Numbered from the stretch's first letter, positions 40,377 to 57,172 are shown. The stretch: DNA of 64,000 nucleotides from an uncultured Gammaproteobacteria bacterium (GCA_964472675.1 CAYYLO010000004.1:1602-65601), one strand, 5' to 3'. The notes: generated from the sequence alone by a model not told the origin. Numbers and translations are program-made.

Positions 40377-43300
40377 ATGGACAAGCTAAAACGGATATTA
40401 TCCCTAACGACACTTTTGCTGGTGCTTAGTAACAGTATACTTCCATATTACTCTTCAGCAAATGTGGTTTTTGCACAAGAAGTAAATGCAACACCTGCCG
40501 CTACTTCGGAAGTGGACGAACCACTTCAGACTTCTTCTGCGCCCACACCAACACCAGAACCAACACCTTCTGAAATTCTTACACTAACACCAACACCAAC
40601 TCCTACTCCTGAAACTGAACTTACTCCAATGCCGGCTGAACAAGAAACAACTGACAACGCTCTACCTGCACCAACCCCTACACCTACACTTTCTGTTGAA
40701 CAGACTGTTATTTCCACACCAATCCCAGTGCCTGTGCCTGCACCTGCACCTGTGCTATTAGCTTGGAAGAATATTGATTCAGCAACAGTTGAAACTATGG
40801 ATAATGTAGAAGCTAACAAAGATTACACTGCTCCTCAAAATGATAAGGTGAAAGTTAACTTTACCAAACTTCCTGAGATTGCTGGAAAACTAACTATTAA
40901 AGAAATTAAATTGTCTTCTAGCCAGGTGGAACAGTTGAAAGCTGTTTCAGACACAGCTTATGAAATTACTTCCACTATGGCTAACGGAACATTTAACTAT
41001 GACTTAACCCTGCCTTTATCAGAGCAAGCCAAAGGCAAGAAGCTGGAAGTAAAAACAGCGGAATCGCAAGAAAAGCTGGACAAAGCACAAACTGTTAATG
41101 AGCCAAAAGAGGAAAAAGCGGATACAATTGCTATTAAAGATTTAAACCATTTTACAGTCTTTGTTATTACCACCCCAGATCCTGACACTACTCAAAAAGT
41201 CTTGATTAATGAAGTAGTTCCAAATCCTCTGAATGGGGCAGAATGGATTGAGCTTTTTAATAACAGCACTCAAGCTACAAACTTAGGAGTGGGAAGCGGT
41301 TGGACTATCAGAAATTCTACTGGCGATACCAGGTCTTTAAGCTCCTTAGGCACTGTTACTGCTTCCGGCAGAGTAGTTTTTGAGGCTCCTGCCAATTGGT
41401 TAAGCAATACTGCCCCTGAAACTATTACTCTATCAAATGAGTTAGGAACACCGGTTGATACAGTGACCATATCTTTAACCTCCCCGGGTTTTGTCATTGA
41501 TCATTACCCGCTGGCTAACGAATCAGTTGGAAGAAAAACAGACGGAGTTGCAGAATGGGTCATCTTTACTATTCCCACCAGAGGCACAGCTAATGTTTTG
41601 CCTAAAACGACAACTAGCCTCTCCGAAGCAGGTCCAATTGCCCCTGAAGGTGGTCTTATGGCAGGTTTCCCATCCTGGTACAAAGACTCTAATGGTTTGG
41701 CGCTTGATTTAATGGAAGCAGCTGATGGTTTTGGTATCTCTGATCCAGTTGATCCATCTAATCCATTTTCACAAACTATTGGCTTTAATGCTGAAGGATT
41801 TTGGTGGTCAGCTGAGGCTTCTATTGACCGCCCAGTAGGCACACGCACCATACTGGTGTTGGCAGTTGAGGCTGCCTTTGCCGGAGAAGCAGCAGTTGAT
41901 GGGGAACAATCAGTGCAAAACAGGCTCAGATACAGGATTGATGGACTGGTACCTGGTGAAACCTATACCATTACCCACCCTTTTGGCACTGTGAAAGAAG
42001 TTGCTGAAGATGATGGGACAATCAATGTCACTGATGACATTGGATGCTTTGCCGGAGGAGGAGTGACCTGCAATCAAACAGCTTCCCCTAACTTTGCCAC
42101 AGCTTTGAACGGTCAAGTAGGGCCATTCTTAACCTGGACCACCTTTAATACTAACCCAGCTTTAACTGACCCTCAACTTACTAATCCTGCCAACCCAAAC
42201 AGAAGATATGTTGGTAATCCCACTATTGAACATGAGGTAACAGGCAGCCCAACAGGCAATAACTTCTTCAGAGTCCAAGGCAAGGATGTGGGTGGCCCTG
42301 GAGTTAACCAAATCCAAACCAACTTATTTGCAGTTTCAGGAAGGCTGGCAGATACAAATGCTCCTGTGATTACCCTTTTTGGCAGTAATCCTGTAAATGT
42401 CAATCAAAATGCTTCTTATATTGATGCTGGAGCAAGTGCTTTAGATGATCTGGGCGGTAACTTAACCGGCAATATTGAAGTTAGCGGTTTGCCTGTTGAC
42501 ACTTCTACCATTGGTGTAAAAACAGTCACTTATACTGTAACTGACAGCGCAGGCCGTACATCCCAAGCAACCAGAACTGTTAATGTAGTTAATCTGGTAG
42601 CGGTAGGAGAAGCAGATACTGTTGCTCCCTTAATCACTATACTTGGGGCAAATCCTGCTTTTGTCACTGTTGGCACACCATATACTGATGTTGGAGCAAC
42701 AGCTTTAGATAATGTTGACGGAGATATTACCGGAAGTATTATCACCACGGGTTTGCCGGTTATTACATCAACAGTTGGCACATTTACTGTTACTTATAAT
42801 GTGGCGGATAGCGCAGGTAATGCAGCAATTCTAGCAAAAAGGACTGTTAATGTGGTAGCAGATACTACTGCTCCTGTAATTACTATGCTGGGGTCAAATC
42901 CTGTCAATATCTTTACAGGCGCTGCTTACTCAGATGCCGGAGCCACAGCCTTGGATGATGTTGACGGAGATATTACCGGGAGTATTGTTACTACGGGTTT
43001 GCCTGTCGATACGTCAAAAGCAGCTACTTTTACCATTACTTATGAAGTAGTTGATTCAGCTGGCAATCCTGCCATTGCAAAAAGAACAGTTAAGGTAGCA
43101 GAAACTTTGCCCGCCAGCCTCTCCGAAGCAGGTCCAATTGCCCCTGAAGGTGGTCTTATGGCAGGTTTCCCATCCTGGTACAAAGACTCTAATGGTTTGG
43201 CGCTTGATTTAATGGAAGCAGCTGATGGTTTTGGTATCTCTGATCCAGTTGATCCATCTAATCCATTTTCACAAACTATTGGCTTTAATGCTGAAGGATT

Positions 43301-45812
43301 TTGGTGGTCAGCTGAGGCTTCTATTGACCGCCCAGTAGGCACACGCACCATACTGGTGTTGGCAGTTGAGGCTGCCTTTGCCGGAGAAGCAGCAGTTGAT
43401 GGGGAACAATCAGTGCAAAACAGGCTCAGATACAGGATTGATGGACTGGTACCTGGTGAAACCTATACCATTACCCACCCTTTTGGCACTGTGAAAGAAG
43501 TTGCTGAAGATGATGGGACAATCAATGTCACTGATGACATTGGATGCTTTGCCGGAGGAGGAGTGACCTGCAATCAAACAGCTTCCCCTAACTTTGCCAC
43601 AGCTTTGAACGGTCAAGTAGGGCCATTCTTAACCTGGACCACCTTTAATACTAACCCAGCTTTAACTGACCCTCAACTTACTAATCCTGCCAACCCAAAC
43701 AGAAGATATGTTGGTAATCCCACTATTGAACATGAGGTAACAGGCAGCCCAACAGGCAATAACTTCTTCAGAGTCCAAGGCAAGGATGTGGGTGGCCCTG
43801 GAGTTAACCAAATCCAAACCAACTTATTTGCAGTTTCAGGAAGGCTGGCAGATACAAATGCTCCTGTGATTACCCTAAATGGTTCTAACCCGGTTGAAGT
43901 GACCCAAAATGAAGCTTATGCTGACAGCGGCGCAACCGCAATTGATAATTTTGATGGTAATCTGACAGCCAGTATTGTAACGACTGGTTTGCCGGTTAAT
44001 ACCTCTGTAATAGGCGTAAAAACCATTACCTATACTGTTTCTGACAGGGCCGGCAATACTGCTATTGCTCAAAGAACTATTAATGTAGTGGCAGCTACCC
44101 CTCCAACTCCAGAACCTCCAGTTCCTCCTGTCCCAGCAGACGGTGCAGGGCAAGCAGATACAACATCTTTAGATGGGTTTTCCTCAACTACTAAGGGGTC
44201 TTATAAAACAGGAGACTTGATAGATATCACTGCTAATTTTGATAAGACTTTAGATGCAGAAAGCACCATGACAGTTGAACTAAGTAATGGTGTCCAAGTT
44301 ATCTTAAGCCAAGTTTCCGGATCAAAGTTAACAGGTACATATATTGTTGGGACAAATATTTCAGAAAACTCTGATAATTTAACTGTAGCAAAAATAATCT
44401 CCAGTAGTATTCAAGCTTCAGACACATTGCCTTCAATAAACTTAAGCAGCATTGTTGTTAATGTCAAAACTTCTGCAGAAGCTGCTGATAAGTCAGGCCA
44501 GGCTGATGTAAATAGTTTGTTGGAACTGGACAGTGAGACTGTTTTAGACATGGGTAGTAATTTAAGTACAGCCACAATAGAAGGCGCAATCACTATTGCT
44601 GGTTTGTCAAAACTGCTAAGTATATTTTCTAATGGTGATCTGGTGAATCAAAATCTAACCTTACCTCAAATTATTGGTGATAAATTGGTTATGGTAAGTA
44701 AGGCAGTCAGGTTAAACTCCGGCCCTAGTGGTTCATTGATTACCTTATCCAATAAAAACCTGTCAACTGTTAAGTTGTCTATAGTAAGTGGAACAACAGT
44801 ATTAGGAGAAAGTAGCTGGAACGGCAAGGTCAATCCTCCTTCTATTGTTACAAATACTGGTATTGCGCCTAGCGGGTTCAAACTCGGTGATTTTGCAATT
44901 GAGGTAGGTTATCCGGAAGGAATCCTGCTTTTTGACCAATCAGTAACCATCCTTTTATCAGGCGTCAATGGCCCTGTCGGATATAAACCCTCAGGCTCTG
45001 ACACTTGGGTTAAGATGGCAAATTGCTTGGGCACTTTTGACAGTCCGCTTAAGCCAGTTTTCCCTGGGGAATGCGCAATTTCTAATGGGGCAGACACCAA
45101 AATCTATACATATCATTTAACTTCTTTTGCCAATTTACAGGAAATTCCCCCTGTTTCCATCCCAACCCCAACACCAGCTATTGTAGTAGCAAGCTCATCT
45201 AATACAGACACTAACACTAATACAACTTCATCCAATTCTAATCTCTCTAATTCTTCCTCAAACAATACTTCTAACAATCCTTCCACTCCTGTTTGTACTG
45301 ATTCCAAGCCAGGCAGTGCTCCTATCTTGCTTTCTGCCGTCACCAGCGGTCCTAACCAGGTGACCTTAACCTGGTCAAAAGCATCTGATCCTGTTTCCCA
45401 TTATTCCATAGTTTATGGCTTGTCGGCAGGCAATCCTATTTATGGAAATACTAATGTTGGGGGGAAGGATACTACCTCATATGCAGTTGGCGGTTTGTCT
45501 GGCGGAACAACTTATTACTTCAAAGTCAGGGCAGGCAATGGTTGTAATGGCAGTGAATATTCAAATGAACTGTCTGCCGCACCGGACGGAGGAACAATAA
45601 ATAGTCCTGCAACAGGATTTACCCGGGGGTTATTGGGTGCTCAGACTGAAGAAGAAACGAAGACTAGCGAGCCTGGAGTCTTAGGTGTCAATGTAAATGG
45701 GCTTGCTTCAAAGAGCAAAGGAACCTGGGCAATACAGCTAATGTTGGCAGCTTTAGCAGCTTTGGGTGTTGGTTATTTTAAGTTCTTTTACAGGAAAAAA
45801 TTAAATGGGTAG
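40377..45812 (+). CDS. Giant secreted multidomain surface protein (1811 aa). Domain order: signal peptide, PT-rich linker, lamin-tail domain, a duplicated unknown domain, Ig-like (DUF5011-type) repeats, an SNT-rich linker, a two-Cys FN3-like module, and a C-terminal TM anchor.
   Basis: - Signal peptide: MDKLKRILSLTTLLLVLS.
- Lamin-tail motif: VLINEVVPNPLNGAEWIELFNNS...GW.
- Ig-like repeats: APVITLxGSNPV...Y.DAGATA.D..DG(D/N)(I/L)TG.I...GLPV.TS..G...VTY.V.DSAGN.
- C-terminal TM helix AIQLMLAALAALGVGYF followed by KFFYRKK. Confidence 0.85.
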   Translation: MDKLKRILSLTTLLLVLSNSILPYYSSANVVFAQEVNATPAATSEVDEPLQTSSAPTPTPEPTPSEILTLTPTPTPTPETELTPMPAEQETTDNALPAPTPTPTLSVEQTVISTPIPVPVPAPAPVLLAWKNIDSATVETMDNVEANKDYTAPQNDKVKVNFTKLPEIAGKLTIKEIKLSSSQVEQLKAVSDTAYEITSTMANGTFNYDLTLPLSEQAKGKKLEVKTAESQEKLDKAQTVNEPKEEKADTIAIKDLNHFTVFVITTPDPDTTQKVLINEVVPNPLNGAEWIELFNNSTQATNLGVGSGWTIRNSTGDTRSLSSLGTVTASGRVVFEAPANWLSNTAPETITLSNELGTPVDTVTISLTSPGFVIDHYPLANESVGRKTDGVAEWVIFTIPTRGTANVLPKTTTSLSEAGPIAPEGGLMAGFPSWYKDSNGLALDLMEAADGFGISDPVDPSNPFSQTIGFNAEGFWWSAEASIDRPVGTRTILVLAVEAAFAGEAAVDGEQSVQNRLRYRIDGLVPGETYTITHPFGTVKEVAEDDGTINVTDDIGCFAGGGVTCNQTASPNFATALNGQVGPFLTWTTFNTNPALTDPQLTNPANPNRRYVGNPTIEHEVTGSPTGNNFFRVQGKDVGGPGVNQIQTNLFAVSGRLADTNAPVITLFGSNPVNVNQNASYIDAGASALDDLGGNLTGNIEVSGLPVDTSTIGVKTVTYTVTDSAGRTSQATRTVNVVNLVAVGEADTVAPLITILGANPAFVTVGTPYTDVGATALDNVDGDITGSIITTGLPVITSTVGTFTVTYNVADSAGNAAILAKRTVNVVADTTAPVITMLGSNPVNIFTGAAYSDAGATALDDVDGDITGSIVTTGLPVDTSKAATFTITYEVVDSAGNPAIAKRTVKVAETLPASLSEAGPIAPEGGLMAGFPSWYKDSNGLALDLMEAADGFGISDPVDPSNPFSQTIGFNAEGFWWSAEASIDRPVGTRTILVLAVEAAFAGEAAVDGEQSVQNRLRYRIDGLVPGETYTITHPFGTVKEVAEDDGTINVTDDIGCFAGGGVTCNQTASPNFATALNGQVGPFLTWTTFNTNPALTDPQLTNPANPNRRYVGNPTIEHEVTGSPTGNNFFRVQGKDVGGPGVNQIQTNLFAVSGRLADTNAPVITLNGSNPVEVTQNEAYADSGATAIDNFDGNLTASIVTTGLPVNTSVIGVKTITYTVSDRAGNTAIAQRTINVVAATPPTPEPPVPPVPADGAGQADTTSLDGFSSTTKGSYKTGDLIDITANFDKTLDAESTMTVELSNGVQVILSQVSGSKLTGTYIVGTNISENSDNLTVAKIISSSIQASDTLPSINLSSIVVNVKTSAEAADKSGQADVNSLLELDSETVLDMGSNLSTATIEGAITIAGLSKLLSIFSNGDLVNQNLTLPQIIGDKLVMVSKAVRLNSGPSGSLITLSNKNLSTVKLSIVSGTTVLGESSWNGKVNPPSIVTNTGIAPSGFKLGDFAIEVGYPEGILLFDQSVTILLSGVNGPVGYKPSGSDTWVKMANCLGTFDSPLKPVFPGECAISNGADTKIYTYHLTSFANLQEIPPVSIPTPTPAIVVASSSNTDTNTNTTSSNSNLSNSSSNNTSNNPSTPVCTDSKPGSAPILLSAVTSGPNQVTLTWSKASDPVSHYSIVYGLSAGNPIYGNTNVGGKDTTSYAVGGLSGGTTYYFKVRAGNGCNGSEYSNELSAAPDGGTINSPATGFTRGLLGAQTEEETKTSEPGVLGVNVNGLASKSKGTWAIQLMLAALAALGVGYFKFFYRKKLNG
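41616..43876. repeat. Perfect 761-nt direct repeat (41616-42376 and 43116-43876) with a 1500-nt period inside giant gene 1
   Basis: Line-by-line comparison shows 100% identity over 761 nt. It encodes a duplicated ~250-aa domain (LSEAGPIAPEGG...NAPVITL). The antisense ORF pairs 41504-41851/43040-43351 and 41910-42116/43410-43616 are artefacts of this repeat. Confidence 0.9.
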
Positions 45813-48800
45813 AAAAGTCTTATCAGCATTTTTGATTTTAGTTGTTGTTTTTTCGAATGGATTTTTAACTTTGGCACAGATTGCTTTAGCTGCTCCAACT
45901 GGTGAAAATAAAACGTTTTATTTTCGAAACCAAAGTGCGCAGTTGCCCAGTAGCCATGTTTTAAGTACCACTGCTCCAACTTCAGGAAATTCTCAAAACA
46001 CTTCCATAACCAGCACTGACTCTCCATCATTCCGGCATTTTCATCCGGGAATAACCAGTTTTCAACATATTTTTGCTACTGAACCAGCTCATACCTTGCC
46101 AGTTGACTTGGCCTCATGGATTTCTGATGTGCCTCTTGATGGTACTTTCCAGGCAGGCAGCTGGAAATTTATAGTACACAAAAACGACAATATCAAAGGG
46201 GAAGTCTCAGTCCCCCATTTTAATGTTTACAAAAGTCCCAGCAATACCAGTTTGGATCAGGCAACTTTTCTTTTTGATGTGGAAGGGCCTGACTGGTGGA
46301 CATCAAGCGATGAGCAGCTTAATTTTTCTACACCCTTACTTAGCCAATTTGAATTTAATAATGCATATTTGGTAGTGCAGCTTTTTGACCAATGCAAATC
46401 AGGTTGTAACGGTGGGAAAATTATGACAGTTTTTGAAGATGGCACGTCTGCTGCTACCCAAACCAGGATAGAAACACCATTATTTGTCCCAGCTGGCAGC
46501 AATGAACCTGTGCCCCCGCCTTCTGCCCCAGCTCCAGAACCTTCTGCACCTCAACCTCCAACCCCCCCTGCAGATATTACTGCCCCTATAATCACTATTT
46601 TGGGAGATAGTCCTGTAACAGTCTTTTTAGGCTCTACTTATATAGATGCTGGTGCTACCGCCATTGATAATATTGACGGTGCTATTTCTGTTGAGACAAC
46701 CAATGCAGTGAATACTGCTGTTTTAGGAGGATATTCTGTAATTTACAAGGCTACTGATAGCGCAGGTAATACTAGTGTTCCTGCTATCAGGACTGTGAAT
46801 GTGGTAGCACCACCAGCCCCAGTGCTTCCACCTCCAGCTCCTATTGTACCTCCTTTACCTCCCTTAGATACCATTGCTCCTGTAATAACTATGCTTGGCT
46901 CATCTCCTTTAGATGTGACAATTGGCTCTGTATACAACGATGCCGGAGCTACAGCTTTGGATAATATAGATGGTGATCTGGCTGCTAAGATTAGTGCTTC
47001 CGGATTACCTATTAATACTGCTAGTGCAGGAACATTTACCATTACTTATAATGTGGCGGATAGCGCAGGCAATACTGCCACACCTGTTACTAGAATTGTG
47101 AATGTGATAGCAGCCCCAGAAGAACCAGCTGCCCCAGCTCCAGAGCCTCCTCCACCTCCAGTCCAACCTTCTGCTCCTAAAAACTCCCCTCCAGTGGTGG
47201 AACCTATCCCTTCTCAAACCATTACGGTTGGGACTCCAGTCTCCTTTAAAGTAATAGCTACTGACACGGATGGGGACGCCTTAACTTACTCTTTAGGCCC
47301 TAATGCTCCATTGGGTGCGACAATTGATCCTAAGACAGGCGCTTTTTTTTGGCTACCGCAAGTTGTAGGCACAACAAATTTTGATATTCTGGTTTCTGAT
47401 GGAGTTAATACTCCGGTTACAACTGGCCACTTGATTGAAAACCGGAACTTAGGAGTTGATGGCATTTTAGGCACAGCAGACGATATTTTCATTGGTGGCA
47501 TGGCTACTTGGGGGATGGTCAAGGCTCAAGCGCGGGACTTTTTAGGCATATTGTTAGATGATTTAGATGTGCTCGACTTGCCACTTTTGGCAACTGACGC
47601 GTATGGCAATTTTATCAAAGGCCCGAATGGTTTTCCACAGCTGGTGATTGATGGCGGTTTACTAGAAGGTAATCCAGCCTCCCCTGTTGATGCCTCAAAA
47701 GCAGTCCGGACCCACCATCCATTTATAGTAGATATCAGCCACAATGCTAATCCTGTTAACTCGCGGGGTGTGCCTCTTAAAGCTGATTCGGATAATGTGA
47801 TTGGACTATCTGAACCAGGCACATATGACAATGAGTTGTTGGATGCGCATTTTATGGCCGGAGACGGTCGTGTTAATGAAAATATTGGCTTAACAGCAGT
47901 CCACCATATTTTTCATTCTGAGCACAACAGGTTGGTGGAGTACGCTAAAAATGTGATACTGGATACAGGTGATTTAGCTTTTTTAAGCCAATGGTTAGTA
48001 GCAGGTAGTGCACCAGATACTTTTCCTCAAACACCTCAAGAAATTACTGCTTTGTCTTGGAATGGGGAACGGTTGTTTCAGGTGGCTAAATTTGGTACGG
48101 AAATGCAATACCAACATTTGGTGTTTGAGGAATTTGCCCGCAAAGTTTCCCCGCAAGTCAATATATTTTCAGGCTATGACAATAGCATTGATCCGGCCAT
48201 TATGGCTGAATTTGCCCACACAGTCTATCGTTTTGGCCACAGTTTGTTAACTGACACCGTTGCGCGTACTAATGAGGATGGCACCACCAATGACATTGGT
48301 TTAATACAGGCCTTCTTAAACCCATTAGAGTTTGTAGCAAGCGGGGATACGCCCATTAAGGCTGCAGGCGCTATTGTTTCAGGCATGGTTAACCAGGTTG
48401 GCAATGAGATTGACGAATTTGTCACAGAATCTTTGCGAAGTAACTTGTTAGGTCTGCCTTTGGATTTGGCTACTATTAATTTAGCCCGGGGACGGGATAC
48501 TGGTGTTCCTCCGCTGAACTCAGCCAGAAAGCAATTTTTTATGGCGACTGGTGGAGATTCGTCTTTAAAGCCATATACCAGCTGGGTAGATTTTGGTTTA
48601 AATATTAAACACCCCCTCTCCCTAATAAATTTTATTGCAGCATATGGCACACATCCGACTGTTTTAAATGCAGCCAGCTTACAAGAAAAACGTGCGGCGG
48701 CTGCTTTGTTAGTTGATGGAGGAGAAGGCGCGCCAGAAGATAGAGTGGATTTCCTAAACAGCACTGGTAATTGGGTTAGTACTGGTTTAGATACTGTTGA

Positions 48801-51800
48801 CTTTTGGATCGGTGGTTTAGCGGAAAAACAAATGCCTTTTGGGGGGCTTTTAGGCCCTACCTTTAATTTTGTGTTTGAGACCCAAATGGAAAAACTGCAA
48901 GATGGAGATAGATTTTATTACCTATTCAGAAATGCCGGCTTAAACTTTTTAACTTCTCTTGAGCAAAACTCCTTTGCAGAATTGGTGATGAGAAACACTG
49001 AAGGCGTCAAGCACACGCCACATGATATTTTTTCGCATCCGGCTTTTACTATTGAAGCTGCCGATATTGATCCTTTGAACCCGGCAACGTTTCCGCCTGA
49101 CACAATTATTATGCCTGATGGCACTATCCGCTACACAGGGGTGGAGCATATTGTGATGGGAGGTACAGCGGGTAATGATAAACTGCATTCATCTGAAGGC
49201 GATGATACTCTTTGGGGAGATGAGGGTAATGATAGGCTGGAAGGTGGAGCAGGCAATGATGCAATTTTGGGCGGTGCAGGTGATGATATTTTAACTGATA
49301 TTTTTGGCGATGATAATATTAAAGGCGGCGAAGGCAATGATGTGATCAACGCAGGAGTTGGCATTGATCTGATTTTAGGAGGGGATGGCCAGGATTTTGT
49401 GGTGGCAGGCAGGGATTCAAAAGAGACTTTTGGAGGGGCTGGTAATGATTTTATTATAGCAGGAGACGGAGCTGATACAGTGTTTGGCAATGAGGGGGAT
49501 GATTGGATTGAAGGCGGTGACCAGGCGGATTTATTGCAGGGTGATAATGGCGATCCTTTCCAAAGCTCACCCACCATTGGCAATGACGTGATCATAGGCG
49601 GCGGGGGCAATGATGATTATGACTCAGAATCCGGCGATGATATTATGCTGGCCGATCCGGGCATTGAACGGAACGAAGGCATGCTTGGTTTTGACTGGGT
49701 GATATACAAAAATGATCCGCAGCCTGCCAATGCAGATATGTTTATTACAGGCTTGTTGCCGCCAACAGTAAATGATTTGCGTGACCGGTTTGATTTGGTT
49801 GAAGGCTTGTCCGGAGGCAGCCTTGACGATATTTTAAGGGGCGATAACCGCACCAGTGTTGGTTTTTTGGACCATGCTTTAAATAACCCTGCCCAAATTG
49901 CTTTGATTAACGGGTTACAAAATTTGCTGGGGGATGGGGTGAGCTCATTTTCAGGAGGAAATATCATATTGGGCGGAGCGGGTAGTGACGTAATTGAGGG
50001 TCGGGGCGGTGATGACCTGATTGATGGTGATGCCTGGCTGAATGTGCGTTTAAGTGTGGGGGATATTAGTGCAGACAGTATGACAGAACTTCAAACTGCC
50101 ATGTTTGAAGGCAAAATAAATCCCGGACAAATAAAAATTATCCGCGAGATATTAACCTCCCAAACAGAAGATGACATTGATACAGCAGTTTTTTCAGGTA
50201 ATCTGGCTGATTACACCATCAGTCAGCCAGATGCTCTAGGTAGGATTACAGTAACAGATAATAGGAGAGAAGATGGAGGAGGAGGCAGAACTAGTGATGG
50301 TACAGATACCCTTCGCAACATTGAACGCTTGCAGTTTGCTGACCAGACTATAGATTTAAATAAGTCAAACAAAGTATCAGCTCCCGCCCTAGTAGATAAG
50401 ATCTCTGAGCCAGGTGTTAGTAATTTGAGATCAGGAGTAGGTTTGACCTTGATTAGGTCTGATCTGCAGTTTATTTTGGATCAGATTAAAATTGCCGAAG
50501 CTCATGCTCAAGGTGCGTTCTTGTCCGGCCTAATCCCCAAAGACGTTTTACCTTGGGGTTTGCGGACAGTTGATGGGACTTTCAATAACATTGTGTCCAA
50601 TCAATCTGAGTTTGGGGCGGCAGACAGGGTATTCCCCCGCCTGACCACACCAGTTTTTAGAAATGCGGAAAATGCAACTTTTGATTTGGATGGGCCAGGC
50701 CCTTTAACTTTAGGCCAGCCAACCTCTTATGCTCAAAATAACGGTTTTGTGTTTGACTCGCAACCCCGCTTGATCAGCAATTTAATTGTTGATCAAACCT
50801 TGGGCAATCCTGCTGCTCAAGCCGCCAGTGCGTTTAGCTTACCTGACCCACAAACTAATAGTTTATTTATCCCAAACATAGCTCCTGATATGGGATTGTC
50901 TGCATCTTTTAATTCCTGGTTTACCTTGTTTGGACAGTTTTTTGATCATGGGTTGGATTTAGTCAACAAAGGCGGTAGCGGTACAGTATTTATCCCGCTT
51001 GCTACTGATGACCCGCTTTTTAACCCTGCCAGCCCGTCTAATTTCATGGTTTTAACAAGAGCAACAAACCAACCTGGCCCGGATGGCGTGTTAGGCACAT
51101 TGGATGATATTCATGAACACACAAACCAAACATCTCCTTTTATTGACCAAAATCAAACTTACACCTCACATCCTTCACATCAGGTATTCCTCCGTTCATT
51201 TAATTTTAGACCGGCTAACAGTTTGTCAGTTTTGGCAAATATAACAGTTGCTCCAAAGATTTTCTCTGTTTTTGGACAAGGCAAGTTTACTTCCACAAAT
51301 GGGCAAACTATTACACCTAAAGTTGTTTCCCAGGGAATCTCTGTTGTTTCAGTGGAAGACGGCGGGGGAATACATTCTGTGACTGTACCGGATGGAACAG
51401 AGATTACCAAAAGCAATGGCAAAGACATCGATATCACTGCCTTAACAGCAGCGGTGCCTGCTATAGATTCCTTAACAGGAATGAATAAAGGAGTGGTGGT
51501 TAATGGCAAGTTGCAATGGGGGATTCCCAACCAGGGGTTGTTGTTTAGTAACCCAATTTCACTGGATATATTTGTTGGTACTGATTTAAATGGTCAGACT
51601 TTGGATGTGCTGCGTTCTGAAACTGGTACTGGTAATTGGACCAATGAGGGAATTGTGGCCCCTGCAACTTGTTTAGTGGCAAATGGCATGTGTACATTTC
51701 AGGCCACAAAAGCCTCAGTTTATATAGCTGCTCAAACTGTAGCTAGTGCTGGGGGAACAATTGGCAATGCTTCCCCAACAGATAACAATAATAGTAATAA

Positions 51801-52440
51801 TACACCCACGAACACATCTAATACAGCCACTAACACTAATACAATTTCATCCAGTTCTAATTCCTTTAACTCTTCCTCAAGTAACGGTTCCTCCACCCCT
51901 TCTAACGCTTCTGCTCCTGTTTGTACTGATTCCAAGCCAGGTAGTGCTCCTAAGTTACTTTCTGCCATAGTTACCGGTCCCAACCAGGTAACTTTAAGTT
52001 GGTCTAAGGCCCAAAATCCTGCAACCTATTACTTAGTAGCTTATGGAACTTCTTCTGAGAATCTACAATTTGGTAATCCTAACGTGGGTGGAGCTGATAC
52101 TACTTCATATGTGGTTAATGGCTTGTCCGGCGGAACGGCTTATTACTTTAAGGTTAGAGCTGGGAACAACTGCATGCCGGGAGAATTTTCCAATGAGTTG
52201 CCTGCAACAGTTGACGGAAGCGTAATTAGGCAGCCCGCCTCAGGGTTTACTGAAGGTGTGTTGGGAGTTAAAAAGGAAACACTCGACAACCCAACAATCG
52301 ACAAACCTGCTCTTGCTCCTACAACTTCCGAAAGTCGAAAGAACAGGATTTTCCAACTAACTTTAGCAGCGATGGTCTTATTAGCTATATCCTATGGTCT
52401 TTTTTATCGCCTTGCTAAAAGAGTAAGCCGACGGTTGTAA
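45805..52440 (+). CDS. Giant secreted multidomain protein (2211 aa). Domain order: signal peptide, Ig-like (DUF5011-type) x2, cadherin-like/He_PIG domain, animal-heme-peroxidase (peroxidase-cyclooxygenase superfamily) domain, RTX hemolysin-type Ca-binding repeats, an N-terminal-type peroxidase segment, an SNT-rich linker, a two-Cys FN3-like module, and a TM anchor. The 8-nt overlap with giant gene 1 suggests translational coupling.
   Basis: - Signal peptide: MGRKVLSAFLILVVVFS.
- Ig-like repeats: APIITILGDSPV, APVITMLGSSPL.
- Cadherin-like: PSQTITVGTPVSFKVIATDTDGDALTYSL.
- Peroxidase motifs: GDGRVNENIGLTAVHHIFHSEHNRLV (Arg/Glu heme-link motif), RFGHSLL (proximal His), LARGRDTGVP, VDFWIGGLAE, GDRFYY.
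- RTX nonapeptides: GGAGNDAILGGAGDDIL, GGEGNDVINAG, GGAGNDFIIAGDGADTVFGNEGDDWIEGG.
- After the RTX block: TVDGTFNN and FGQFFDHGLD (distal His), SPFIDQNQTYTS (Ca loop).
- C-terminus: TM helix plus basic tail. Confidence 0.85.
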   Translation: MGRKVLSAFLILVVVFSNGFLTLAQIALAAPTGENKTFYFRNQSAQLPSSHVLSTTAPTSGNSQNTSITSTDSPSFRHFHPGITSFQHIFATEPAHTLPVDLASWISDVPLDGTFQAGSWKFIVHKNDNIKGEVSVPHFNVYKSPSNTSLDQATFLFDVEGPDWWTSSDEQLNFSTPLLSQFEFNNAYLVVQLFDQCKSGCNGGKIMTVFEDGTSAATQTRIETPLFVPAGSNEPVPPPSAPAPEPSAPQPPTPPADITAPIITILGDSPVTVFLGSTYIDAGATAIDNIDGAISVETTNAVNTAVLGGYSVIYKATDSAGNTSVPAIRTVNVVAPPAPVLPPPAPIVPPLPPLDTIAPVITMLGSSPLDVTIGSVYNDAGATALDNIDGDLAAKISASGLPINTASAGTFTITYNVADSAGNTATPVTRIVNVIAAPEEPAAPAPEPPPPPVQPSAPKNSPPVVEPIPSQTITVGTPVSFKVIATDTDGDALTYSLGPNAPLGATIDPKTGAFFWLPQVVGTTNFDILVSDGVNTPVTTGHLIENRNLGVDGILGTADDIFIGGMATWGMVKAQARDFLGILLDDLDVLDLPLLATDAYGNFIKGPNGFPQLVIDGGLLEGNPASPVDASKAVRTHHPFIVDISHNANPVNSRGVPLKADSDNVIGLSEPGTYDNELLDAHFMAGDGRVNENIGLTAVHHIFHSEHNRLVEYAKNVILDTGDLAFLSQWLVAGSAPDTFPQTPQEITALSWNGERLFQVAKFGTEMQYQHLVFEEFARKVSPQVNIFSGYDNSIDPAIMAEFAHTVYRFGHSLLTDTVARTNEDGTTNDIGLIQAFLNPLEFVASGDTPIKAAGAIVSGMVNQVGNEIDEFVTESLRSNLLGLPLDLATINLARGRDTGVPPLNSARKQFFMATGGDSSLKPYTSWVDFGLNIKHPLSLINFIAAYGTHPTVLNAASLQEKRAAAALLVDGGEGAPEDRVDFLNSTGNWVSTGLDTVDFWIGGLAEKQMPFGGLLGPTFNFVFETQMEKLQDGDRFYYLFRNAGLNFLTSLEQNSFAELVMRNTEGVKHTPHDIFSHPAFTIEAADIDPLNPATFPPDTIIMPDGTIRYTGVEHIVMGGTAGNDKLHSSEGDDTLWGDEGNDRLEGGAGNDAILGGAGDDILTDIFGDDNIKGGEGNDVINAGVGIDLILGGDGQDFVVAGRDSKETFGGAGNDFIIAGDGADTVFGNEGDDWIEGGDQADLLQGDNGDPFQSSPTIGNDVIIGGGGNDDYDSESGDDIMLADPGIERNEGMLGFDWVIYKNDPQPANADMFITGLLPPTVNDLRDRFDLVEGLSGGSLDDILRGDNRTSVGFLDHALNNPAQIALINGLQNLLGDGVSSFSGGNIILGGAGSDVIEGRGGDDLIDGDAWLNVRLSVGDISADSMTELQTAMFEGKINPGQIKIIREILTSQTEDDIDTAVFSGNLADYTISQPDALGRITVTDNRREDGGGGRTSDGTDTLRNIERLQFADQTIDLNKSNKVSAPALVDKISEPGVSNLRSGVGLTLIRSDLQFILDQIKIAEAHAQGAFLSGLIPKDVLPWGLRTVDGTFNNIVSNQSEFGAADRVFPRLTTPVFRNAENATFDLDGPGPLTLGQPTSYAQNNGFVFDSQPRLISNLIVDQTLGNPAAQAASAFSLPDPQTNSLFIPNIAPDMGLSASFNSWFTLFGQFFDHGLDLVNKGGSGTVFIPLATDDPLFNPASPSNFMVLTRATNQPGPDGVLGTLDDIHEHTNQTSPFIDQNQTYTSHPSHQVFLRSFNFRPANSLSVLANITVAPKIFSVFGQGKFTSTNGQTITPKVVSQGISVVSVEDGGGIHSVTVPDGTEITKSNGKDIDITALTAAVPAIDSLTGMNKGVVVNGKLQWGIPNQGLLFSNPISLDIFVGTDLNGQTLDVLRSETGTGNWTNEGIVAPATCLVANGMCTFQATKASVYIAAQTVASAGGTIGNASPTDNNNSNNTPTNTSNTATNTNTISSSSNSFNSSSSNGSSTPSNASAPVCTDSKPGSAPKLLSAIVTGPNQVTLSWSKAQNPATYYLVAYGTSSENLQFGNPNVGGADTTSYVVNGLSGGTAYYFKVRAGNNCMPGEFSNELPATVDGSVIRQPASGFTEGVLGVKKETLDNPTIDKPALAPTTSESRKNRIFQLTLAAMVLLAISYGLFYRLAKRVSRRL

Positions 52441-52456: not shown

Positions 52457-52478
52457 ATACAACCCGTTTCAAAACTCG
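52457..52478. repeat. Right copy of the 22-nt motif ATACAACcCGTTTCAAAACTCG, 17 nt after the giant gene 2 stop
   Basis: See the left copy at 40153-40174. Confidence 0.7.
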
Positions 52479-53551
52479 TGCGTCAATTTACTTTTCAAAA
52501 AGGGGTTGTTAGAATAGTTTTAATGGAAGCTCCATCAGCAGTATCGGATAGACCTATACTTTACAAACCAACTGATACGGAACTTGCCAGGGAATCGGTA
52601 GAGGAAGCAGGAATAAGATATTTTGCTGCACTGGCAAGCTTGGCTAGAACTCCAGAAGAGCTGCGCGCATTAGTTCGTCTTCATGCGCAAAAAGCAGCAG
52701 AAGCTGGCGGTCCGGTTTTGGGTGAAGTTTTAACTGGATTCTCTGAAGAATTATCAAGTGCTTCTCAACCTGTATTAGAAGAACCGGAAGGCACTCCAAC
52801 ACTAGAAAAAAGAACTGTGCAAACGCCTATGGGGGAACTTACTCTTTATCCTCAAAGAAAAGAAGCAGCCTCCCCTCTTCTTCCAAAAGAAAAGGGGGCA
52901 GTTAGGTTGCCTGATGTAGTATTTGAAATACTAGAAACTCTTGCGAAAGATCCGCGTGTCGTAGTTAACTATGAAGACTTAATTAAAAATGTCTGGAAAT
53001 ATGAAAGCTATAATAAGAAAACAGACCTGTCAATGGTAAGAACCCGAGTATATGTTCTTCGCCAATTATTAGGAGATAGCGGAGAAGGTGTGGCTTCTGC
53101 AAGAAAATTCAAATTTATTCACACCTTTGAAGAAGGTATTTCTTTAACAGATCATCTTACTGTTGACCAAATTATCCGCCTAACCCCACAGGAAAGAAAA
53201 GATTTACATATTGCAAGCGCTACTATTCCTGGAAGAAATAGACAGCCAAAACAAGTGTTTCTTGATGCCGCACGGGGAATTGCAATTGTGCCAGATTCGG
53301 CAACAAACCCATATAAATATTTGTCAACGCTGGAAGCCGATGTCCTGGAAGCATTGATGCGTCATCCACAATCTATACTTCCCAAAGATATGTTTATTAA
53401 TATTATAGAAAAACACGGATATATCTCAAAGACAGACGATAAAACATCTGCTTTAAAAGCACTTGTGTATCGTTTAAGACAAAAGCTGGAAGAGGATCTT
53501 CCAATTTATACTATTGATAATGGCCATACGCTTACAGAAAGAATGCATTAA
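52478..53551 (+). CDS. Tandem OmpR/PhoB-type winged-helix (trans_reg_C) DNA-binding protein with no receiver domain. ATG at 52523 is the likely real start; the GTG at 52478 overlaps the repeat motif.
   Basis: There are two copies of the trans_reg_C pattern: VRLPDVVFEILETLAKDPRVVVNYEDLIKNVWKYESYNKKTDLSMVRTRVYVLRQLL and ...LSTLEADVLEALMRHPQSILPKDMFINIIEKHGYISKTDDKTSALKALVYRLRQKLEE. No D-box/receiver motifs are present. Confidence 0.55.
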   Translation: MRQFTFQKGVVRIVLMEAPSAVSDRPILYKPTDTELARESVEEAGIRYFAALASLARTPEELRALVRLHAQKAAEAGGPVLGEVLTGFSEELSSASQPVLEEPEGTPTLEKRTVQTPMGELTLYPQRKEAASPLLPKEKGAVRLPDVVFEILETLAKDPRVVVNYEDLIKNVWKYESYNKKTDLSMVRTRVYVLRQLLGDSGEGVASARKFKFIHTFEEGISLTDHLTVDQIIRLTPQERKDLHIASATIPGRNRQPKQVFLDAARGIAIVPDSATNPYKYLSTLEADVLEALMRHPQSILPKDMFINIIEKHGYISKTDDKTSALKALVYRLRQKLEEDLPIYTIDNGHTLTERMH

Positions 53552-56137: not shown

Positions 56138-57172
56138 CTATTTTTCTCTTAAGATATAGTATGTTGCCTTGCCTTTGCCTTTTCTACTGATTAAAGCTAA
56201 ATCTATTAATTTTTTAAAATCCAGTGCTCTGGTTGCCTTTGCCCGGTCAACTAACTTTGCATAATCTCGGTCAGCAATAAATCCTTTTTCGCGAGTAAAC
56301 TCAAGTACCTTCAGGTGATAAGATTTTAGTTGAGTCTCTGGATTTATTCCAACTTCCGGAAGCATTTTTTGCACTCTTAAAAGCTCATCAATAATTCCCT
56401 CTGTAAAATATTCCAACCACAAGGTGAAATCAATTTTATTTACTAATTCATAATAATTACCAAATTCTCCGACAGTTTGAAAGTATTTAGTAACATTTTT
56501 GTTGTAGTAATTCTCGAAACTGAAAAGGTTAAAAGTATTTAATCCCATTTCAGCAAGTAAGACTTTTGTTGCCAGACGTGTCGTTCTCCCATTCCCATCC
56601 ATAAAAGGATGGATTATTACCATCTGTTTATGGAAAATACCGGCTAAAATAAGCGGATCAATTTCGCTTCGGTTACTATTTACAAACTCAATCATATCCT
56701 TTATTAGTTTCTTTACGTCTTTTACGTCAGGAGGCAGATATACAACTTTTCGCGTCCTTGGATCATTGACAACCACCGGTTTCTCCCGAAATTTACCAGT
56801 TTCAAATTCAGGCAATAGTCCAACGGTCACTTGCTTTTGAATTTTTAATATTATCTCAAGAGATAATATTACTTGCGTTTTTTCAAGCTTTTCATTCAAA
56901 TTCTGGAGTGCTTGATTATAGTTCAAAACTTCCTTTTCACTATCTCTTACGTGAGCAGGTTTAGATTTAAGGATTTTTTTAACCTCAGTTAAGGGTAAGG
57001 GATTACCTTCAATGCTTGTTGAAGCATAGGTTGAAACCGCTCTTGCAGCTTGCTCAATCTCTACCAACACAATATTGGGAAATCGCCTATTGTTCAAATC
57101 GTTTACCAAAGTATTGATTCTTTTAATGTTTGCTAAGAGGCGATCTGTGATTGTATAGCGAGGATTAAACAT
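56138..57172 (-). CDS. fic: Fic family protein, class II (N-terminal inhibitory motif in cis), with a C-terminal wHTH
   Basis: FIC active-site motif HPFMDGNGRTTRLAT, and the inhibitory helix motif (S/T)xxxE(G/N) as STSIEGN near the N-terminus. Confidence 0.85.
   Translation of the reverse strand: MFNPRYTITDRLLANIKRINTLVNDLNNRRFPNIVLVEIEQAARAVSTYASTSIEGNPLPLTEVKKILKSKPAHVRDSEKEVLNYNQALQNLNEKLEKTQVILSLEIILKIQKQVTVGLLPEFETGKFREKPVVVNDPRTRKVVYLPPDVKDVKKLIKDMIEFVNSNRSEIDPLILAGIFHKQMVIIHPFMDGNGRTTRLATKVLLAEMGLNTFNLFSFENYYNKNVTKYFQTVGEFGNYYELVNKIDFTLWLEYFTEGIIDELLRVQKMLPEVGINPETQLKSYHLKVLEFTREKGFIADRDYAKLVDRAKATRALDFKKLIDLALISRKGKGKATYYILREK

What the first reader, a model, noticed from the sequence alone, without database searches (positions are those of the whole stretch)
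45805..52440. Giant 2211-aa surface protein fusing an animal-heme-peroxidase domain, RTX Ca-binding repeats and adhesin-type Ig/cadherin domains in a reduced low-GC genome
- The translation carries the hallmark motifs of the peroxidase-cyclooxygenase superfamily (PF03098): a GDxRxNE...EHNRL block with the heme-linking Arg/Glu, the proximal-His block RFGHS, and the RGRDxG, DxWxGGLAE and DRFYY blocks.
- These are followed by at least five GGxGxDxL-type hemolysin nonapeptide repeats.
- Upstream are bacterial Ig-like (DUF5011-type) and cadherin-like domains; at the C-terminus are a signal-anchored FN3-like module and a TM helix.
- Bacterial peroxicin/peroxidockerin-type proteins with RTX repeats are known mainly from cyanobacteria and proteobacteria (established knowledge).
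- Finding one embedded in a cell-surface adhesin of what looks like a minimal CPR-type genome is unusual. It suggests an extracellular oxidative, cross-linking or host-interaction function.
Basis: partly seen in the sequence, partly recalled or inferred. Interest (0 to 1): 0.85.

Follow-up and report, generated by a model that had tools for sequence, protein, structure and literature searches.

The report
Circularly permuted haem peroxidase surface protein
A giant cell-surface protein of a tiny groundwater (CPR) bacterium carries a bacterial "animal-type" haem peroxidase whose two halves are encoded in swapped order around a 420-residue calcium-binding block, a natural circular permutation apparently not described for this enzyme family and also found in a DPANN archaeon.

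Summary
ORF 45805-52440 (+) encodes 2211 aa with a strong PF03098 haem-peroxidase match (7e-62), RTX repeats, two Ig-like domains, a Big_9/He_PIG-like domain, FN3 and a C-terminal membrane anchor. NCBI names the source genome Candidatus Blackburnbacteria (CPR).

Pfam positions 208-530 (distal Arg/Glu, proximal His) lie at aa 681-1076. RTX follows. Pfam positions 2-174 (distal Gln/Asp/His, Ca loop) come last, at aa 1587-1800.

Canonical relatives are long peroxicins of the MopA/PepA type (59-68% identical) with the order N-C-RTX, often repeated as N-C-RTX-N-C. Eight protein clusters from independent assemblies, including a Woesearchaeota MAG, share exactly the same cut point and the order C-RTX-N.

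Both halves are under strong purifying selection (dN/dS 0.04-0.12). They keep 52/52 and 142/145 of the family's near-invariant columns. The permuted forms have Sec signal peptides instead of the canonical T1SS-type layout.

Most likely this is a functional, Ca-dependent extracellular peroxidase whose haem pocket assembles from two distant segments. AlphaFold could not confirm the docking, and the substrate is unknown.

Verdict: new variant of a known kind, of moderately high interest.

The parts
45805..52440 (+). Whole gene: 2211-aa Sec-exported, C-terminally anchored surface protein carrying the permuted peroxidase cassette
   Evidence: ORF list and translation. Identical to an NCBI Candidatus Blackburnbacteria MAG protein. 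The start overlaps the stop of the upstream giant gene by 8 nt.
45805..45891 (+). Signal peptide (aa 1-29, ...LAQIALA|AP)
   Evidence: Read from the translation: a basic N-terminus, a hydrophobic core and an AxA site. No predictor was run. All permuted homologues also start with signal-peptide-like sequences.
45892..46569 (+). N-terminal domain of unknown family plus a Pro-rich linker (aa 30-255)
   Evidence: No Pfam or PDB sequence match. Shared with P0003 at 77% identity.
46570..47145 (+). Two Bact_surface_Ig-like (DUF5011) domains (aa 256-447)
   Evidence: PF16403 at 2.1e-32, two stretches. 46-57% identical to the Ig-like domains of the upstream 1811-aa protein.
47182..47412 (+). Big_9 / He_PIG-like Ig domain (aa 460-536), joined directly to the peroxidase C-part
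   Evidence: PF17963 at 4.2e-5. The equivalent region is called PF05345 in P0004, P0007 and P0008.
47413..49089 (+). Peroxidase C-part (aa 537-1095), equivalent to canonical residues ~265-820. It starts at the cut point TTGHLIEN. It contains PERCAL motif 1 (aa 550), distal Arg689/Glu692 (nt 47869-47880), proximal His812 (nt 48238-48240), Asn892 (nt 48478-48480), WIGGLAE and DRFYY.
   Evidence: PF03098 profile positions 208-416 and 446-530. Aligned to 8s6c, LPO and MPO heavy chain. 59% identical to P0022 residues 265-1240 together with RTX. dN/dS 0.07. 142/145 near-invariant columns kept.
49090..50358 (+). RTX beta-roll block plus its conserved non-repeat C-terminal module (aa 1096-1518). It now serves as the connector between the old C-terminus and the old N-terminus of the peroxidase domain.
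   Evidence: PF00353 at 3.3e-30, 7 stretches. In the AF2 model this stretch is beta-strand with block-mean pLDDT of roughly 55-89, mostly 70-89. dN/dS 0.065. Colinear with the RTX unit of canonical proteins.
50359..50448 (+). Variable 30-aa linker created by the permutation (aa 1519-1548)
   Evidence: Not conserved among the eight permuted proteins. dN/dS 0.29-0.59 against 0.04-0.12 in the flanking segments. Canonical proteins begin right after it (P0022 aa 6 = window aa 1551).
50449..51204 (+). Peroxidase N-part (aa 1549-1800), equivalent to canonical residues ~6-258. It contains RTVDGTFNN, distal Gln1711/Asp1714/His1715 (nt 50935-50949), PERCAL motif 2 (aa 1758) and the Ca-loop TNQTSPFIDQNQTYTS. 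It ends at the cut point SHQVFLRSF.
   Evidence: PF03098 profile positions 2-174. Aligned to 8s6c residues 4-16 and 67-160. 68% identical to P0022 residues 6-258. dN/dS 0.04-0.12. 52/52 near-invariant columns kept.
51205..51924 (+). Tail domain of unknown family (aa 1801-1985) and an S/N/T-rich low-complexity stalk (aa 1986-2040)
   Evidence: No Pfam or PDB match. Shared with P0002 and P0003 only. A similar S/N/T stalk is present in the upstream paralogue.
51943..52203 (+). Fibronectin type III domain (aa 2047-2133)
   Evidence: PF00041 at 2e-10. aa 2038-2158 are 65% identical to the FN3 module of the upstream 1811-aa protein.
52348..52407 (+). C-terminal transmembrane anchor (aa 2182-2201) followed by the basic tail RLAKRVSRRL
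   Evidence: Read from the translation. The upstream paralogue ends in the same kind of helix plus basic tail. No predictor was run.
40377..45812 (+). Upstream 1811-aa paralogous surface scaffold without a peroxidase (LTD, 4 Ig-like, HYR, FN3, anchor), probably co-transcribed
   Evidence: Pfam, blastp against the 2211-aa protein, 8-nt stop/start overlap.

Best explanation
The gene encodes a Sec-exported, membrane-anchored surface protein. Its catalytic core is a circularly permuted 'long peroxicin' (MopA/PepA-type bacterial animal-haem-peroxidase) cassette.

Shown:
- The canonical order N-part / C-part / RTX has become C-part / RTX / 30-aa linker / N-part.
- The cut lies in one surface loop, between SHQVFLR(E)Y and TG(R/K)L, and about 10 loop residues are lost.
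- The same cut is shared by a small clade found in CPR bacteria and a Woesearchaeota archaeon.
- Both halves and the RTX block are under strong purifying selection and keep every catalytic residue and nearly every family-invariant residue.
- The canonical layout (no signal peptide, C-terminal RTX) is replaced by an N-terminal signal peptide. In this organism an Ig/FN3/TM scaffold is shared with the neighbouring gene.

Inferred:
- After export the RTX block folds with Ca2+.
- The downstream N-part (distal Gln1711/Asp1714/His1715, Ca loop) docks onto the upstream C-part (Arg689/Glu692, proximal His812/Asn892) to rebuild one ordinary haem pocket.
- Haem is scavenged from outside, because CPR bacteria generally lack haem synthesis.
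- The enzyme acts as a Ca-dependent extracellular peroxidase/oxidase at the cell surface. It would consume H2O2 and oxidise an external substrate, with Mn(II) or superoxide chemistry as in MopA-type enzymes the best guess.
- The permutation most likely arose by tandem duplication of an N-C-RTX unit followed by loss of the first N-part and the last C-part. Tandem forms are abundant in this family.
For: Permuted order:
- Pfam profile 208-530 lies at aa 681-1076 and profile 2-174 at aa 1587-1800.
- One-to-one blastp mapping to canonical P0022: window 1551-1799 to P0022 6-258, and window 537-1518 to P0022 265-1240.

Not an artefact:
- Eight protein clusters at 60-100% identity share the C-RTX-N order over the full length.
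- They are complete ORFs in contigs from NCBI, ENA, Logan and JGI assemblies.
- The cut point is identical in all of them.
- P0024 and P0025 are just signal peptide + C-RTX-N + stop.

Single origin:
- The permuted clade is monophyletic in the C tree (bootstrap 0.96 and 1.0).
- It is monophyletic in the protein-based N tree (bootstrap 0.78), but not in the locus-based N tree, where one canonical N-C unit nests within it (bootstrap 0.25).

Function retained:
- dN/dS is 0.07 for the C-part, 0.04-0.12 for the N-part, 0.065 for RTX and 0.29-0.59 for the linker.
- 52/52 and 142/145 of the columns that are >=97% conserved in non-permuted units are kept.
- Catalytic residues are conserved in all eight proteins and align to solved peroxidases.
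- The re-ordered sequence aligns colinearly at 59-68% identity to 86 canonical proteins.

Fold family and RTX:
- Foldseek hits of the model are exclusively from the peroxidase-cyclooxygenase superfamily.
- RTX beta-roll modelled with block-mean pLDDT of roughly 55-89, mostly 70-89.

Characterised relatives:
- MopA needs haem and Ca2+ and oxidises Mn(II) (PMC6247904).
- The PepA domain has peroxidase activity after haem reconstitution and binds Ca through PERCAL motifs (PMC3396595). Two PERCAL motifs are present here.

Tandem intermediates are viable: about 115 of 158 related genome and metagenome loci are N-C-N-C.

Chain-break precedent: MPO and EPO are deposited as separate light and heavy chains.
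Against: - No structural confirmation. AF2 on the natural permuted sequence gave mean pLDDT 55 and pTM 0.45, with both peroxidase halves below 60.
- Even the re-ordered domain reached only pLDDT 67 and pTM 0.59, with the distal-His and proximal-His helices below 55. Foldseek TM-scores were 0.24-0.40. Docking of the halves is therefore inferred, not shown.
- The specific duplicated intermediate was not found. In trees built from loci, the permuted clade sits next to single-unit N-C genes (bootstrap 0.4), not inside the sampled tandem clades.
- No haem synthesis or uptake gene is present in the 64-kb window. The cofactor source is unexplained.
- Substrate and physiological role are extrapolated from proteobacterial relatives that are at most 68% identical.
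Confidence: 0.7

Rival explanations
1. The halves complement each other in trans. The N-part of one chain docks onto the C-part of a neighbouring chain (domain swapping). This would give dimers or surface polymers whose active sites form only on oligomerisation.
For: The two halves are separated by about 450 residues of rigid beta-roll plus a short 30-aa linker. That spacing could favour intermolecular over intramolecular docking. AF2 did not produce a confident intramolecular assembly. Sequence conservation is equally compatible with assembly in cis or in trans.
Against: No direct evidence. The tandem N-C-RTX-N-C relatives show that the same RTX-to-N connection exists where each N pairs with the C that follows it. 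The geometry is therefore flexible. The poor AF2 result is most simply explained by shallow alignments.
Confidence: 0.12
2. The peroxidase-like cassette is catalytically inactive. It would be a structural or adhesive module, as in peroxinectin-like or DUOX-type peroxidase-homology domains, kept for binding rather than chemistry. A variant of this reading is that only the C-part matters and the N-part is a remnant.
For: The protein is embedded in an adhesin-like scaffold beside other giant surface proteins. CPR bacteria are not expected to make haem (established knowledge, not tested here). No haem genes are in the window.
Against: Every catalytic and haem-linking residue (Gln, Asp, His, Arg, Glu, His, Asn) is conserved in all eight permuted proteins. 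The N-part has dN/dS 0.04-0.12 and keeps 52/52 invariant columns. According to the review read here, inactive DUOX domains have lost the proximal His (PMC4420034). The minimal forms carry no adhesion domains.
Confidence: 0.1
3. The swapped order is an assembly or binning artefact, or a degraded fragment of a tandem N-C-RTX-N-C gene cut by contig ends or frameshifts.
For: Tandem genes are common, and fragments of them can look like C-RTX-N-C (P0012, P0045, P0048). In L007 the gene call of the closest relative is split into 290-aa and 1804-aa ORFs.
Against: The window ORF is uninterrupted. A signal peptide and Ig domains are fused in frame to the cut point, and a different domain, FN3 and a TM anchor follow the N-part. 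The same junctions occur in complete ORFs of independent assemblies diverged to 60% identity. One of these is a 243-kb archaeal contig. The junction-flanking sequences evolve under selection.
Confidence: 0.02

Closest known systems
Long peroxicins / MopA-type Mn(II)-oxidising animal haem peroxidases (Erythrobacter SD-21, Aurantimonas SI85-9A1, Roseobacter AzwK-3b). Family 5 of the peroxidase-cyclooxygenase superfamily.
   Same: The catalytic domain has the same bacterial insertions. Identity is 59-68% over both halves, with the same RTX unit after the C-part, the same invariant residues and PERCAL motifs (PMC4420034, PMC6247904).
   Different: The order of the domain halves is swapped (C-RTX-N instead of N-C-RTX). 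RTX is internal rather than C-terminal. There is a Sec signal peptide instead of a start directly at M..DLEFIL and a T1SS-like C-terminus. The cassette is fused to Ig/FN3/TM scaffolds. The hosts are a CPR bacterium and a DPANN archaeon instead of Proteobacteria or Actinomycetota.
PepA (PP_2561) of Pseudomonas putida KT2440 and other two-domain N-C-RTX-N-C peroxidases
   Same: PERCAL Ca-binding inserts (G-x-D-G-x-x-[GN]-[TN]-x-D-D) lie inside the peroxidase domain. Hemolysin-type repeats are present. The inner segment C1-RTX-N2 of tandem relatives such as P0005, P0036 and P0012 is colinear with the window cassette (PMC3396595).
   Different: PepA-type proteins keep complete domains on both sides. 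The window protein keeps only the inner segment. In trees the permuted clade is not nested in the sampled tandem clades.
Cyanobacterium TDX16 peroxidase (PDB 8s6c), DdPoxA (6erc), lactoperoxidase and myeloperoxidase
   Same: Best solved-structure matches by sequence and by Foldseek. The distal GQFxDH, xRxxE, proximal RxGH and N...RGRD blocks all align. MPO and EPO show that the fold tolerates a chain break between an N-terminal segment carrying the distal His and the rest, because they are deposited as light and heavy chains.
   Different: These enzymes are colinear. They lack the ~145-aa bacterial insertion after the cut site and have no RTX. The MPO break lies just after the distal-His helix, whereas here the break lies after the Ca loop (mapped between 8s6c residues ~160 and ~190). 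The MPO break position is from established knowledge.

Membership tests
Peroxidase-cyclooxygenase superfamily (Pfam PF03098 An_peroxidase) | Significant match to the family profile | tested here: met
   E 7.3e-62, 210 bits against a gathering cut-off of 25. The three stretches together cover profile positions 2-174, 208-416 and 446-530.
Peroxidase-cyclooxygenase superfamily (Pfam PF03098 An_peroxidase) | Distal Gln-x-x-Asp-His, with Asp as the haem ester link | tested here: met
   Gln1711, Asp1714 and His1715 in FGQFFDH. Aligned to GQFLDHD of 8s6c. Invariant in 8 permuted and 86 canonical sequences.
Peroxidase-cyclooxygenase superfamily (Pfam PF03098 An_peroxidase) | Distal Arg and haem-linking Glu (-X-R-X-X-E-) | tested here: met
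   Arg689 and Glu692 in GDGRVNE. Aligned to GDVRSNE of 8s6c. The motif definition is from PMC4420034.
Peroxidase-cyclooxygenase superfamily (Pfam PF03098 An_peroxidase) | Proximal His hydrogen-bonded to Asn | tested here: met
   His812 (YRFGHS) and Asn892 (INLARGRD) align to the YRVGHT and LNIQRGRD blocks of 8s6c. Geometry was not assessable.
Peroxidase-cyclooxygenase superfamily (Pfam PF03098 An_peroxidase) | Domain encoded as one colinear segment in N-to-C order | tested here: not met
   The C-terminal two thirds of the profile precede the N-terminal third by about 500 residues. It is homologous to the family but has a permuted topology.
Peroxidase-cyclooxygenase superfamily (Pfam PF03098 An_peroxidase) | Binds haem and turns over H2O2 | not testable with these tools
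   Requires biochemistry. The AF2 models are too poor in the haem-pocket helices.
Long peroxicin / MopA-PepA type (Family 5) | Peroxidase domain combined with hemolysin-type Ca-binding repeats and PERCAL inserts | tested here: met
   PF00353 at 3.3e-30. PERCAL motifs at aa 550 and 1758. 59-68% identity to canonical members.
Long peroxicin / MopA-PepA type (Family 5) | Architecture: N-terminal peroxidase domain(s), C-terminal RTX, no signal peptide (T1SS-type substrate layout) | tested here: not met
   The window protein has a signal peptide, an internal RTX block and a C-terminal TM anchor. Canonical P0022, P0016 and P0031 start at M..DLEFIL and end in RTX-type C-termini.
Long peroxicin / MopA-PepA type (Family 5) | Mn(II) oxidation or superoxide production | not testable with these tools
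   Known only for a few proteobacterial members (PMC6247904, PMC9224936 introduction).
Natural circular permutant | Same sequence elements as the parent family in cyclically shifted order, with one cut point and one new junction | tested here: met
   Window 1551-1799 maps to P0022 6-258 and window 537-1518 to P0022 265-1240. The cut point is identical in 8 proteins. The re-ordered sequence is colinear with 86 homologues.
Natural circular permutant | Both segments maintained by selection after the rearrangement | tested here: met
   dN/dS 0.07 (C-part) and 0.04-0.12 (N-part), against 0.29-0.59 for the new linker. 52/52 and 142/145 invariant columns kept.
Natural circular permutant | The permuted chain refolds into the parental fold | tested here: inconclusive
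   AF2 on aa 601-1800 gave pLDDT 55 and pTM 0.45. The re-ordered chimera gave pLDDT 67 and pTM 0.59, with Foldseek family hits at TM 0.24-0.40.

The most novel reading that the evidence does not exclude
The permutation is adaptive rather than neutral. Placing the distal-His segment after the RTX block would make assembly of the haem pocket depend on Ca2+-driven RTX folding outside the cell. The result would be a built-in 'assemble only after export' switch. That switch would have let a T1SS-type proteobacterial enzyme be re-routed through Sec in organisms without an outer membrane. The cassette then spread between CPR bacteria and DPANN archaea as a portable extracellular redox module running on scavenged haem.
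Probability: 0.2. Interest if true: 0.85.

Novelty: new variant of a known kind. Interest (0 to 1): 0.62.

Why it matters
- The peroxidase-cyclooxygenase superfamily (MPO, LPO, TPO, COX, DUOX, bacterial peroxicins) has been treated as a colinear fold. Searches of the open-access library found no paper describing a permuted member.
- A permutant conserved under selection shows that the haem pocket can be built from segments about 1000 residues apart in reverse order, joined through an RTX beta-roll. This is useful for understanding folding and covalent haem attachment, and for engineering split or switchable peroxidases.
- It places a haem enzyme on the surface of a CPR bacterium and a DPANN archaeon, organisms thought to lack haem synthesis. 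That implies cofactor scavenging and an extracellular oxidative activity in episymbionts.
- It documents gene sharing between CPR and DPANN.
- Domain-order-blind annotation hides such cases. NCBI calls this protein only 'DUF5011 domain-containing'.

Tried and rejected
1. AlphaFold2 of the natural permuted region (aa 601-1800, 29-row alignment of permuted and tandem homologues). The model was poor (pLDDT 55, pTM 0.45) and only the RTX block was usable. It says nothing about N/C docking.

2. AlphaFold2 of the re-ordered domain (aa 1545-1800 + 537-1095, 45 rows). Mean pLDDT 67, but the distal-His and proximal-His helices were below 55. Foldseek against PDB found only superfamily members at TM 0.24-0.40. 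The fold family is confirmed, but pocket geometry cannot be assessed.

3. Search for the direct tandem ancestor.
- The protein-based NJ trees put the permuted clade next to a clade containing the tandem forms, without support (0.05 and 0.28).
- The locus-based trees put it next to 17 single-unit genes (bootstrap 0.4).
- Pairwise identities lean the way an 'inner segment of a tandem' origin predicts (N closer to N2 in 60/85 loci, C closer to C1 in 71/85). The differences are about 2% and the loci are mostly Pseudomonas.
- The question is unresolved.

4. Assembly artefact: rejected (see the rival explanations).

5. Recent horizontal transfer into this genome: not supported. Cassette GC3 (0.38) equals that of host genes such as Lon.

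6. Family assignment of the N-terminal domain (aa 30-255) and the tail domain (aa 1801-1985): no Pfam, NCBIfam or PDB sequence match.

7. Literature. 'Circular permutation' with 'heme peroxidase', and 'peroxidase-cyclooxygenase superfamily' with 'permut', returned nothing relevant. The CPR with haem peroxidase search returned no relevant paper among those listed.

8. GTDB and JGI scans for more permuted members. Only the Woesearchaeota locus (L010) and one JGI contig (L090) were found among the 158 best loci.

Full report
**1. Observation**

The ORF at 45805-52440 (+) exists and encodes 2211 aa. Pfam gives the following matches:
- PF03098 An_peroxidase at 7.3e-62 (210 bits, cut-off 25).
- PF00353 RTX repeats at 4.7e-26.
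- Two PF16403 Bact_surface_Ig-like (DUF5011) domains.
- A Big_9 domain at aa 460-536, called He_PIG (PF05345) in homologues.
- An FN3 domain at aa 2047-2133.

The translation starts with a signal-peptide-like sequence and ends with a hydrophobic helix and a basic tail. The identical protein is in NCBI as 'MAG: DUF5011 domain-containing protein [Candidatus Blackburnbacteria bacterium]'.

The rest of the window holds housekeeping genes. These include RNase Y, MiaA, SecDF, RecJ, Lon and several aminoacyl-tRNA synthetases. No haem synthesis or uptake genes are present.

**2.

Scanning fragments separately places the Pfam profile as follows:
- Positions 208-416 at aa 681-911.
- Positions 446-530 at aa ~995-1076.
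- The RTX block next.
- Positions 2-174 only afterwards, at aa 1587-1800.

The motif map agrees. GDGRVNE (686), EHNRL (706), RFGHS (809), RGRD (895), WIGGLAE (1001) and DRFYY (1035) come first. RTVDGTFNN (1587) and the distal-His block FGQFFDH (1709), which open every normal member of the family, come last.

Against a canonical homologue (P0022, Nitrosomonas sp. Nm33) the mapping is one-to-one:
- Window 1551-1799 corresponds to P0022 6-258 (68% identity).
- Window 537-1518 corresponds to P0022 265-1240 (59% identity).

The parent sequence is therefore cut once, between residues ~258 and ~265, and the pieces are joined in the opposite order through the RTX unit.

**3. Is it real?**

A search of 5.8 billion proteins, followed by motif and domain mapping, shows three architectures among the 120 best hits:
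- About 95 are canonical N-C-RTX.
- About 17 are tandem N-C-RTX-N-C or fragments of it.
- Eight are C-RTX-N: the window protein plus P0002, P0003, P0004, P0007, P0008, P0024 and P0025, at 60-87% identity to the window over 96-100% of the query.

The permuted genes are complete ORFs in contigs from independent projects:
- A 243-kb contig of a Candidatus Woesearchaeota MAG (GCA_016184345.1), with archaeal neighbours NMD3, an archaeal CCA-adding enzyme and SMC.
- One ENA assembly.
- Logan assemblies of nine sequencing runs, representing six distinct loci (L002-L006, L008, L009).

A JGI contig adds another (L090).

All eight share the same cut. The C-part begins (T/D)TG(H/R)LIEN and the N-part ends SHQVFLR-x-(F/Y/W). 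Canonical proteins read ...SHQVFLREY-xLNAxGxPVA-TG(R/K)L..., so about ten loop residues were lost.

P0024 and P0025 are nothing but signal peptide + C-RTX-N + stop.

The permuted group is monophyletic in C-part trees (bootstrap 0.96 and 1.0). It is monophyletic in the protein-based N-part tree (0.78) but not in the locus-based N-part tree, where one single-unit gene nests within it (0.25).

An assembly artefact is excluded, and a single origin is likely.

**4. Is it functional?**

Several lines of evidence say yes.
- Selection (Nei-Gojobori dN/dS, window against its two closest relatives): C-part 0.07/0.07, RTX 0.064/0.066, N-part 0.12/0.04. The new 30-aa linker (aa 1519-1548) is much less constrained (0.29/0.59) and is not conserved in the alignment.
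- Conserved columns: of the columns that are >=97% conserved in 112-122 non-permuted units, the window keeps 52/52 in the N-part and 142/145 in the C-part. The three changes are conservative.
- Catalytic residues (motif definitions from PMC4420034): Gln1711, Asp1714 and His1715 (distal side, Asp being the ester link), Arg689 and Glu692, proximal His812 and Asn892 are invariant in all permuted proteins and align to the corresponding blocks of solved peroxidases.
- Re-ordering: placed back in canonical order, the two window halves align colinearly with 86 canonical proteins at 59-68% identity.
- PERCAL motifs (PMC3396595): two Ca-binding motifs are present, at aa 550 and 1758.

**5. Structure**

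This part was inconclusive.
- AF2 on the natural order (aa 601-1800) modelled the RTX region as beta-roll, with block-mean pLDDT of roughly 55-89, mostly 70-89. Both peroxidase halves stayed below 60 (mean 55, pTM 0.45).
- AF2 on the re-ordered domain reached mean pLDDT 67 and pTM 0.59, with low confidence in the distal-His and proximal-His helices.
- Foldseek against PDB returned only peroxidase-cyclooxygenase superfamily members (8s6c, 6erc, MPO, LPO, DUOX, COX) at probability 1.0 but TM 0.24-0.40.

The fold family is confirmed. Re-docking of the two halves is not demonstrated.

The fold is known to tolerate a chain break. MPO and EPO are deposited as light and heavy chains, and the light chain carries the distal His (established knowledge).

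**6. Origin**

Tandem N-C-RTX-N-C genes are the majority among related genome and metagenome loci (about 64 of 80 and about 59 of 78). They are documented in the literature (PMC4420034, PMC6247904, PMC3396595). The window cassette is colinear with their inner segment C1-RTX-N2.

The intermediate required by the classical duplication-and-truncation route to permutation is therefore demonstrably viable in this family. The actual ancestor was not identified:
- The permuted clade groups with single-unit genes of Alphaproteobacteria-like MAGs at low support.
- The identity bias towards C1 and N2 is small.

Cassette GC3 matches host genes, so the acquisition is not recent.

**7. Context and mechanism**

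Canonical proteobacterial members start directly at M..DLEFIL without a signal peptide and end with RTX-type C-termini, the layout of a T1SS substrate. All permuted members have Sec-type signal peptides.

In the window protein the cassette sits inside a scaffold shared with the upstream 1811-aa gene. The Ig-like domains are 46-57% identical and the FN3-anchor module is 65% identical. The two genes overlap by 8 nt.

In other members the cassette is fused to different scaffolds or to none. It usually lies next to other giant HYR/Ig-like surface proteins. The conserved functional unit is therefore the enzyme cassette.

Best mechanism (inferred):
- Sec export.
- Ca-driven folding of RTX.
- Docking of the downstream N-part onto the upstream C-part.
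- Uptake of exogenous haem.
- Ca-dependent extracellular peroxidase/oxidase chemistry at the cell surface.

By analogy with MopA and Roseobacter enzymes this could be Mn(II) oxidation or superoxide chemistry, or H2O2 removal as proposed for PepA (PMC6247904, PMC3396595, PMC9224936). The substrate is a guess.

**8. Comparison and novelty**

The protein works like, and is homologous to, long peroxicins of the MopA/PepA type. It fails two architectural criteria of that family: colinear domain order, and N-terminal peroxidase with C-terminal RTX and no signal peptide.

Open-access literature searches found no description of a permuted member of this superfamily, nor of such an enzyme in CPR or DPANN.

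Verdict: new variant of a known kind. Interest is moderately high (0.62). The surprise lies in the topology and the hosts, not in the family assignment.

Noticed in passing
L001/L010 (JACPCV010000003.1, Candidatus Woesearchaeota MAG), gene at L001:8001-12443: A DPANN archaeon carries the same permuted peroxidase cassette at 68-71% identity to the CPR protein. It is flanked by archaeal genes (NMD3, an archaeal CCA-adding enzyme, SMC) and by giant Ig-like/HYR surface proteins. This implies inter-domain transfer between CPR bacteria and DPANN archaea in groundwater.
   Followed up: partly
window 40377-45812 (+): An 1811-aa surface protein with a lamin-tail domain, four Bact_surface_Ig-like domains, HYR and FN3. 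Its stop overlaps the peroxidase gene start by 8 nt. It shares its FN3 module (65% identity over aa 2038-2158) and a similar S/N/T-rich stalk and C-terminal anchor with the peroxidase protein. The two genes look like an operon of paralogous scaffolds.
   Followed up: partly
L007:2711-8978 (ENA ERZ28563641, closest relative, syntenic with the window): The orthologous gene is called as two overlapping ORFs (290 aa and 1804 aa). The 1804-aa product starts inside the Ig-like region. This could be a frameshift, a sequencing error or a genuinely truncated N-terminus.
   Followed up: no
window 52478-53551 (+) and L007:9033-10079: A 357-aa protein with two Trans_reg_C (OmpR/PhoB-type winged-helix) stretches and no detected receiver domain lies directly downstream of the peroxidase gene. 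It is conserved in the syntenic relative and could be a dedicated regulator.
   Followed up: no
P0008 (L003:3223-7986), alignment position equal to window aa 546-559: One permuted homologue has a 14-residue deletion that removes the first PERCAL Ca-binding motif right after the cut point. That motif is therefore dispensable in the permuted clade.
   Followed up: no
Loci L011-L167 (GTDB and JGI scans): Two-domain N-C-RTX-N-C peroxidase genes outnumber single-domain ones among the closest relatives (about 123 of 158 loci, mostly Pseudomonas). Several Pseudomonas genomes carry two such loci, for example P. monachiensis (L036 and L050). A few loci show three units (L039, L084).
   Followed up: partly
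window 59410-61005 (+): The lysyl-tRNA synthetase is of the class I type (PF01921), the archaeal-type enzyme, in a bacterial genome. Next to it are GreA, an HD-domain protein and SerRS.
   Followed up: no
window 56138-57172 (-): A Fic/DOC family protein (PF02661, 2.3e-17) lies next to tRNA-Glu(CTC) at 57253-57327.
   Followed up: no
window 45892-46569 and 51205-51759: Two domains of the giant protein (aa 30-255 and aa 1801-1985) have no Pfam, NCBIfam or PDB sequence match. They are shared only with the closest Blackburnbacteria-like relatives.
   Followed up: partly
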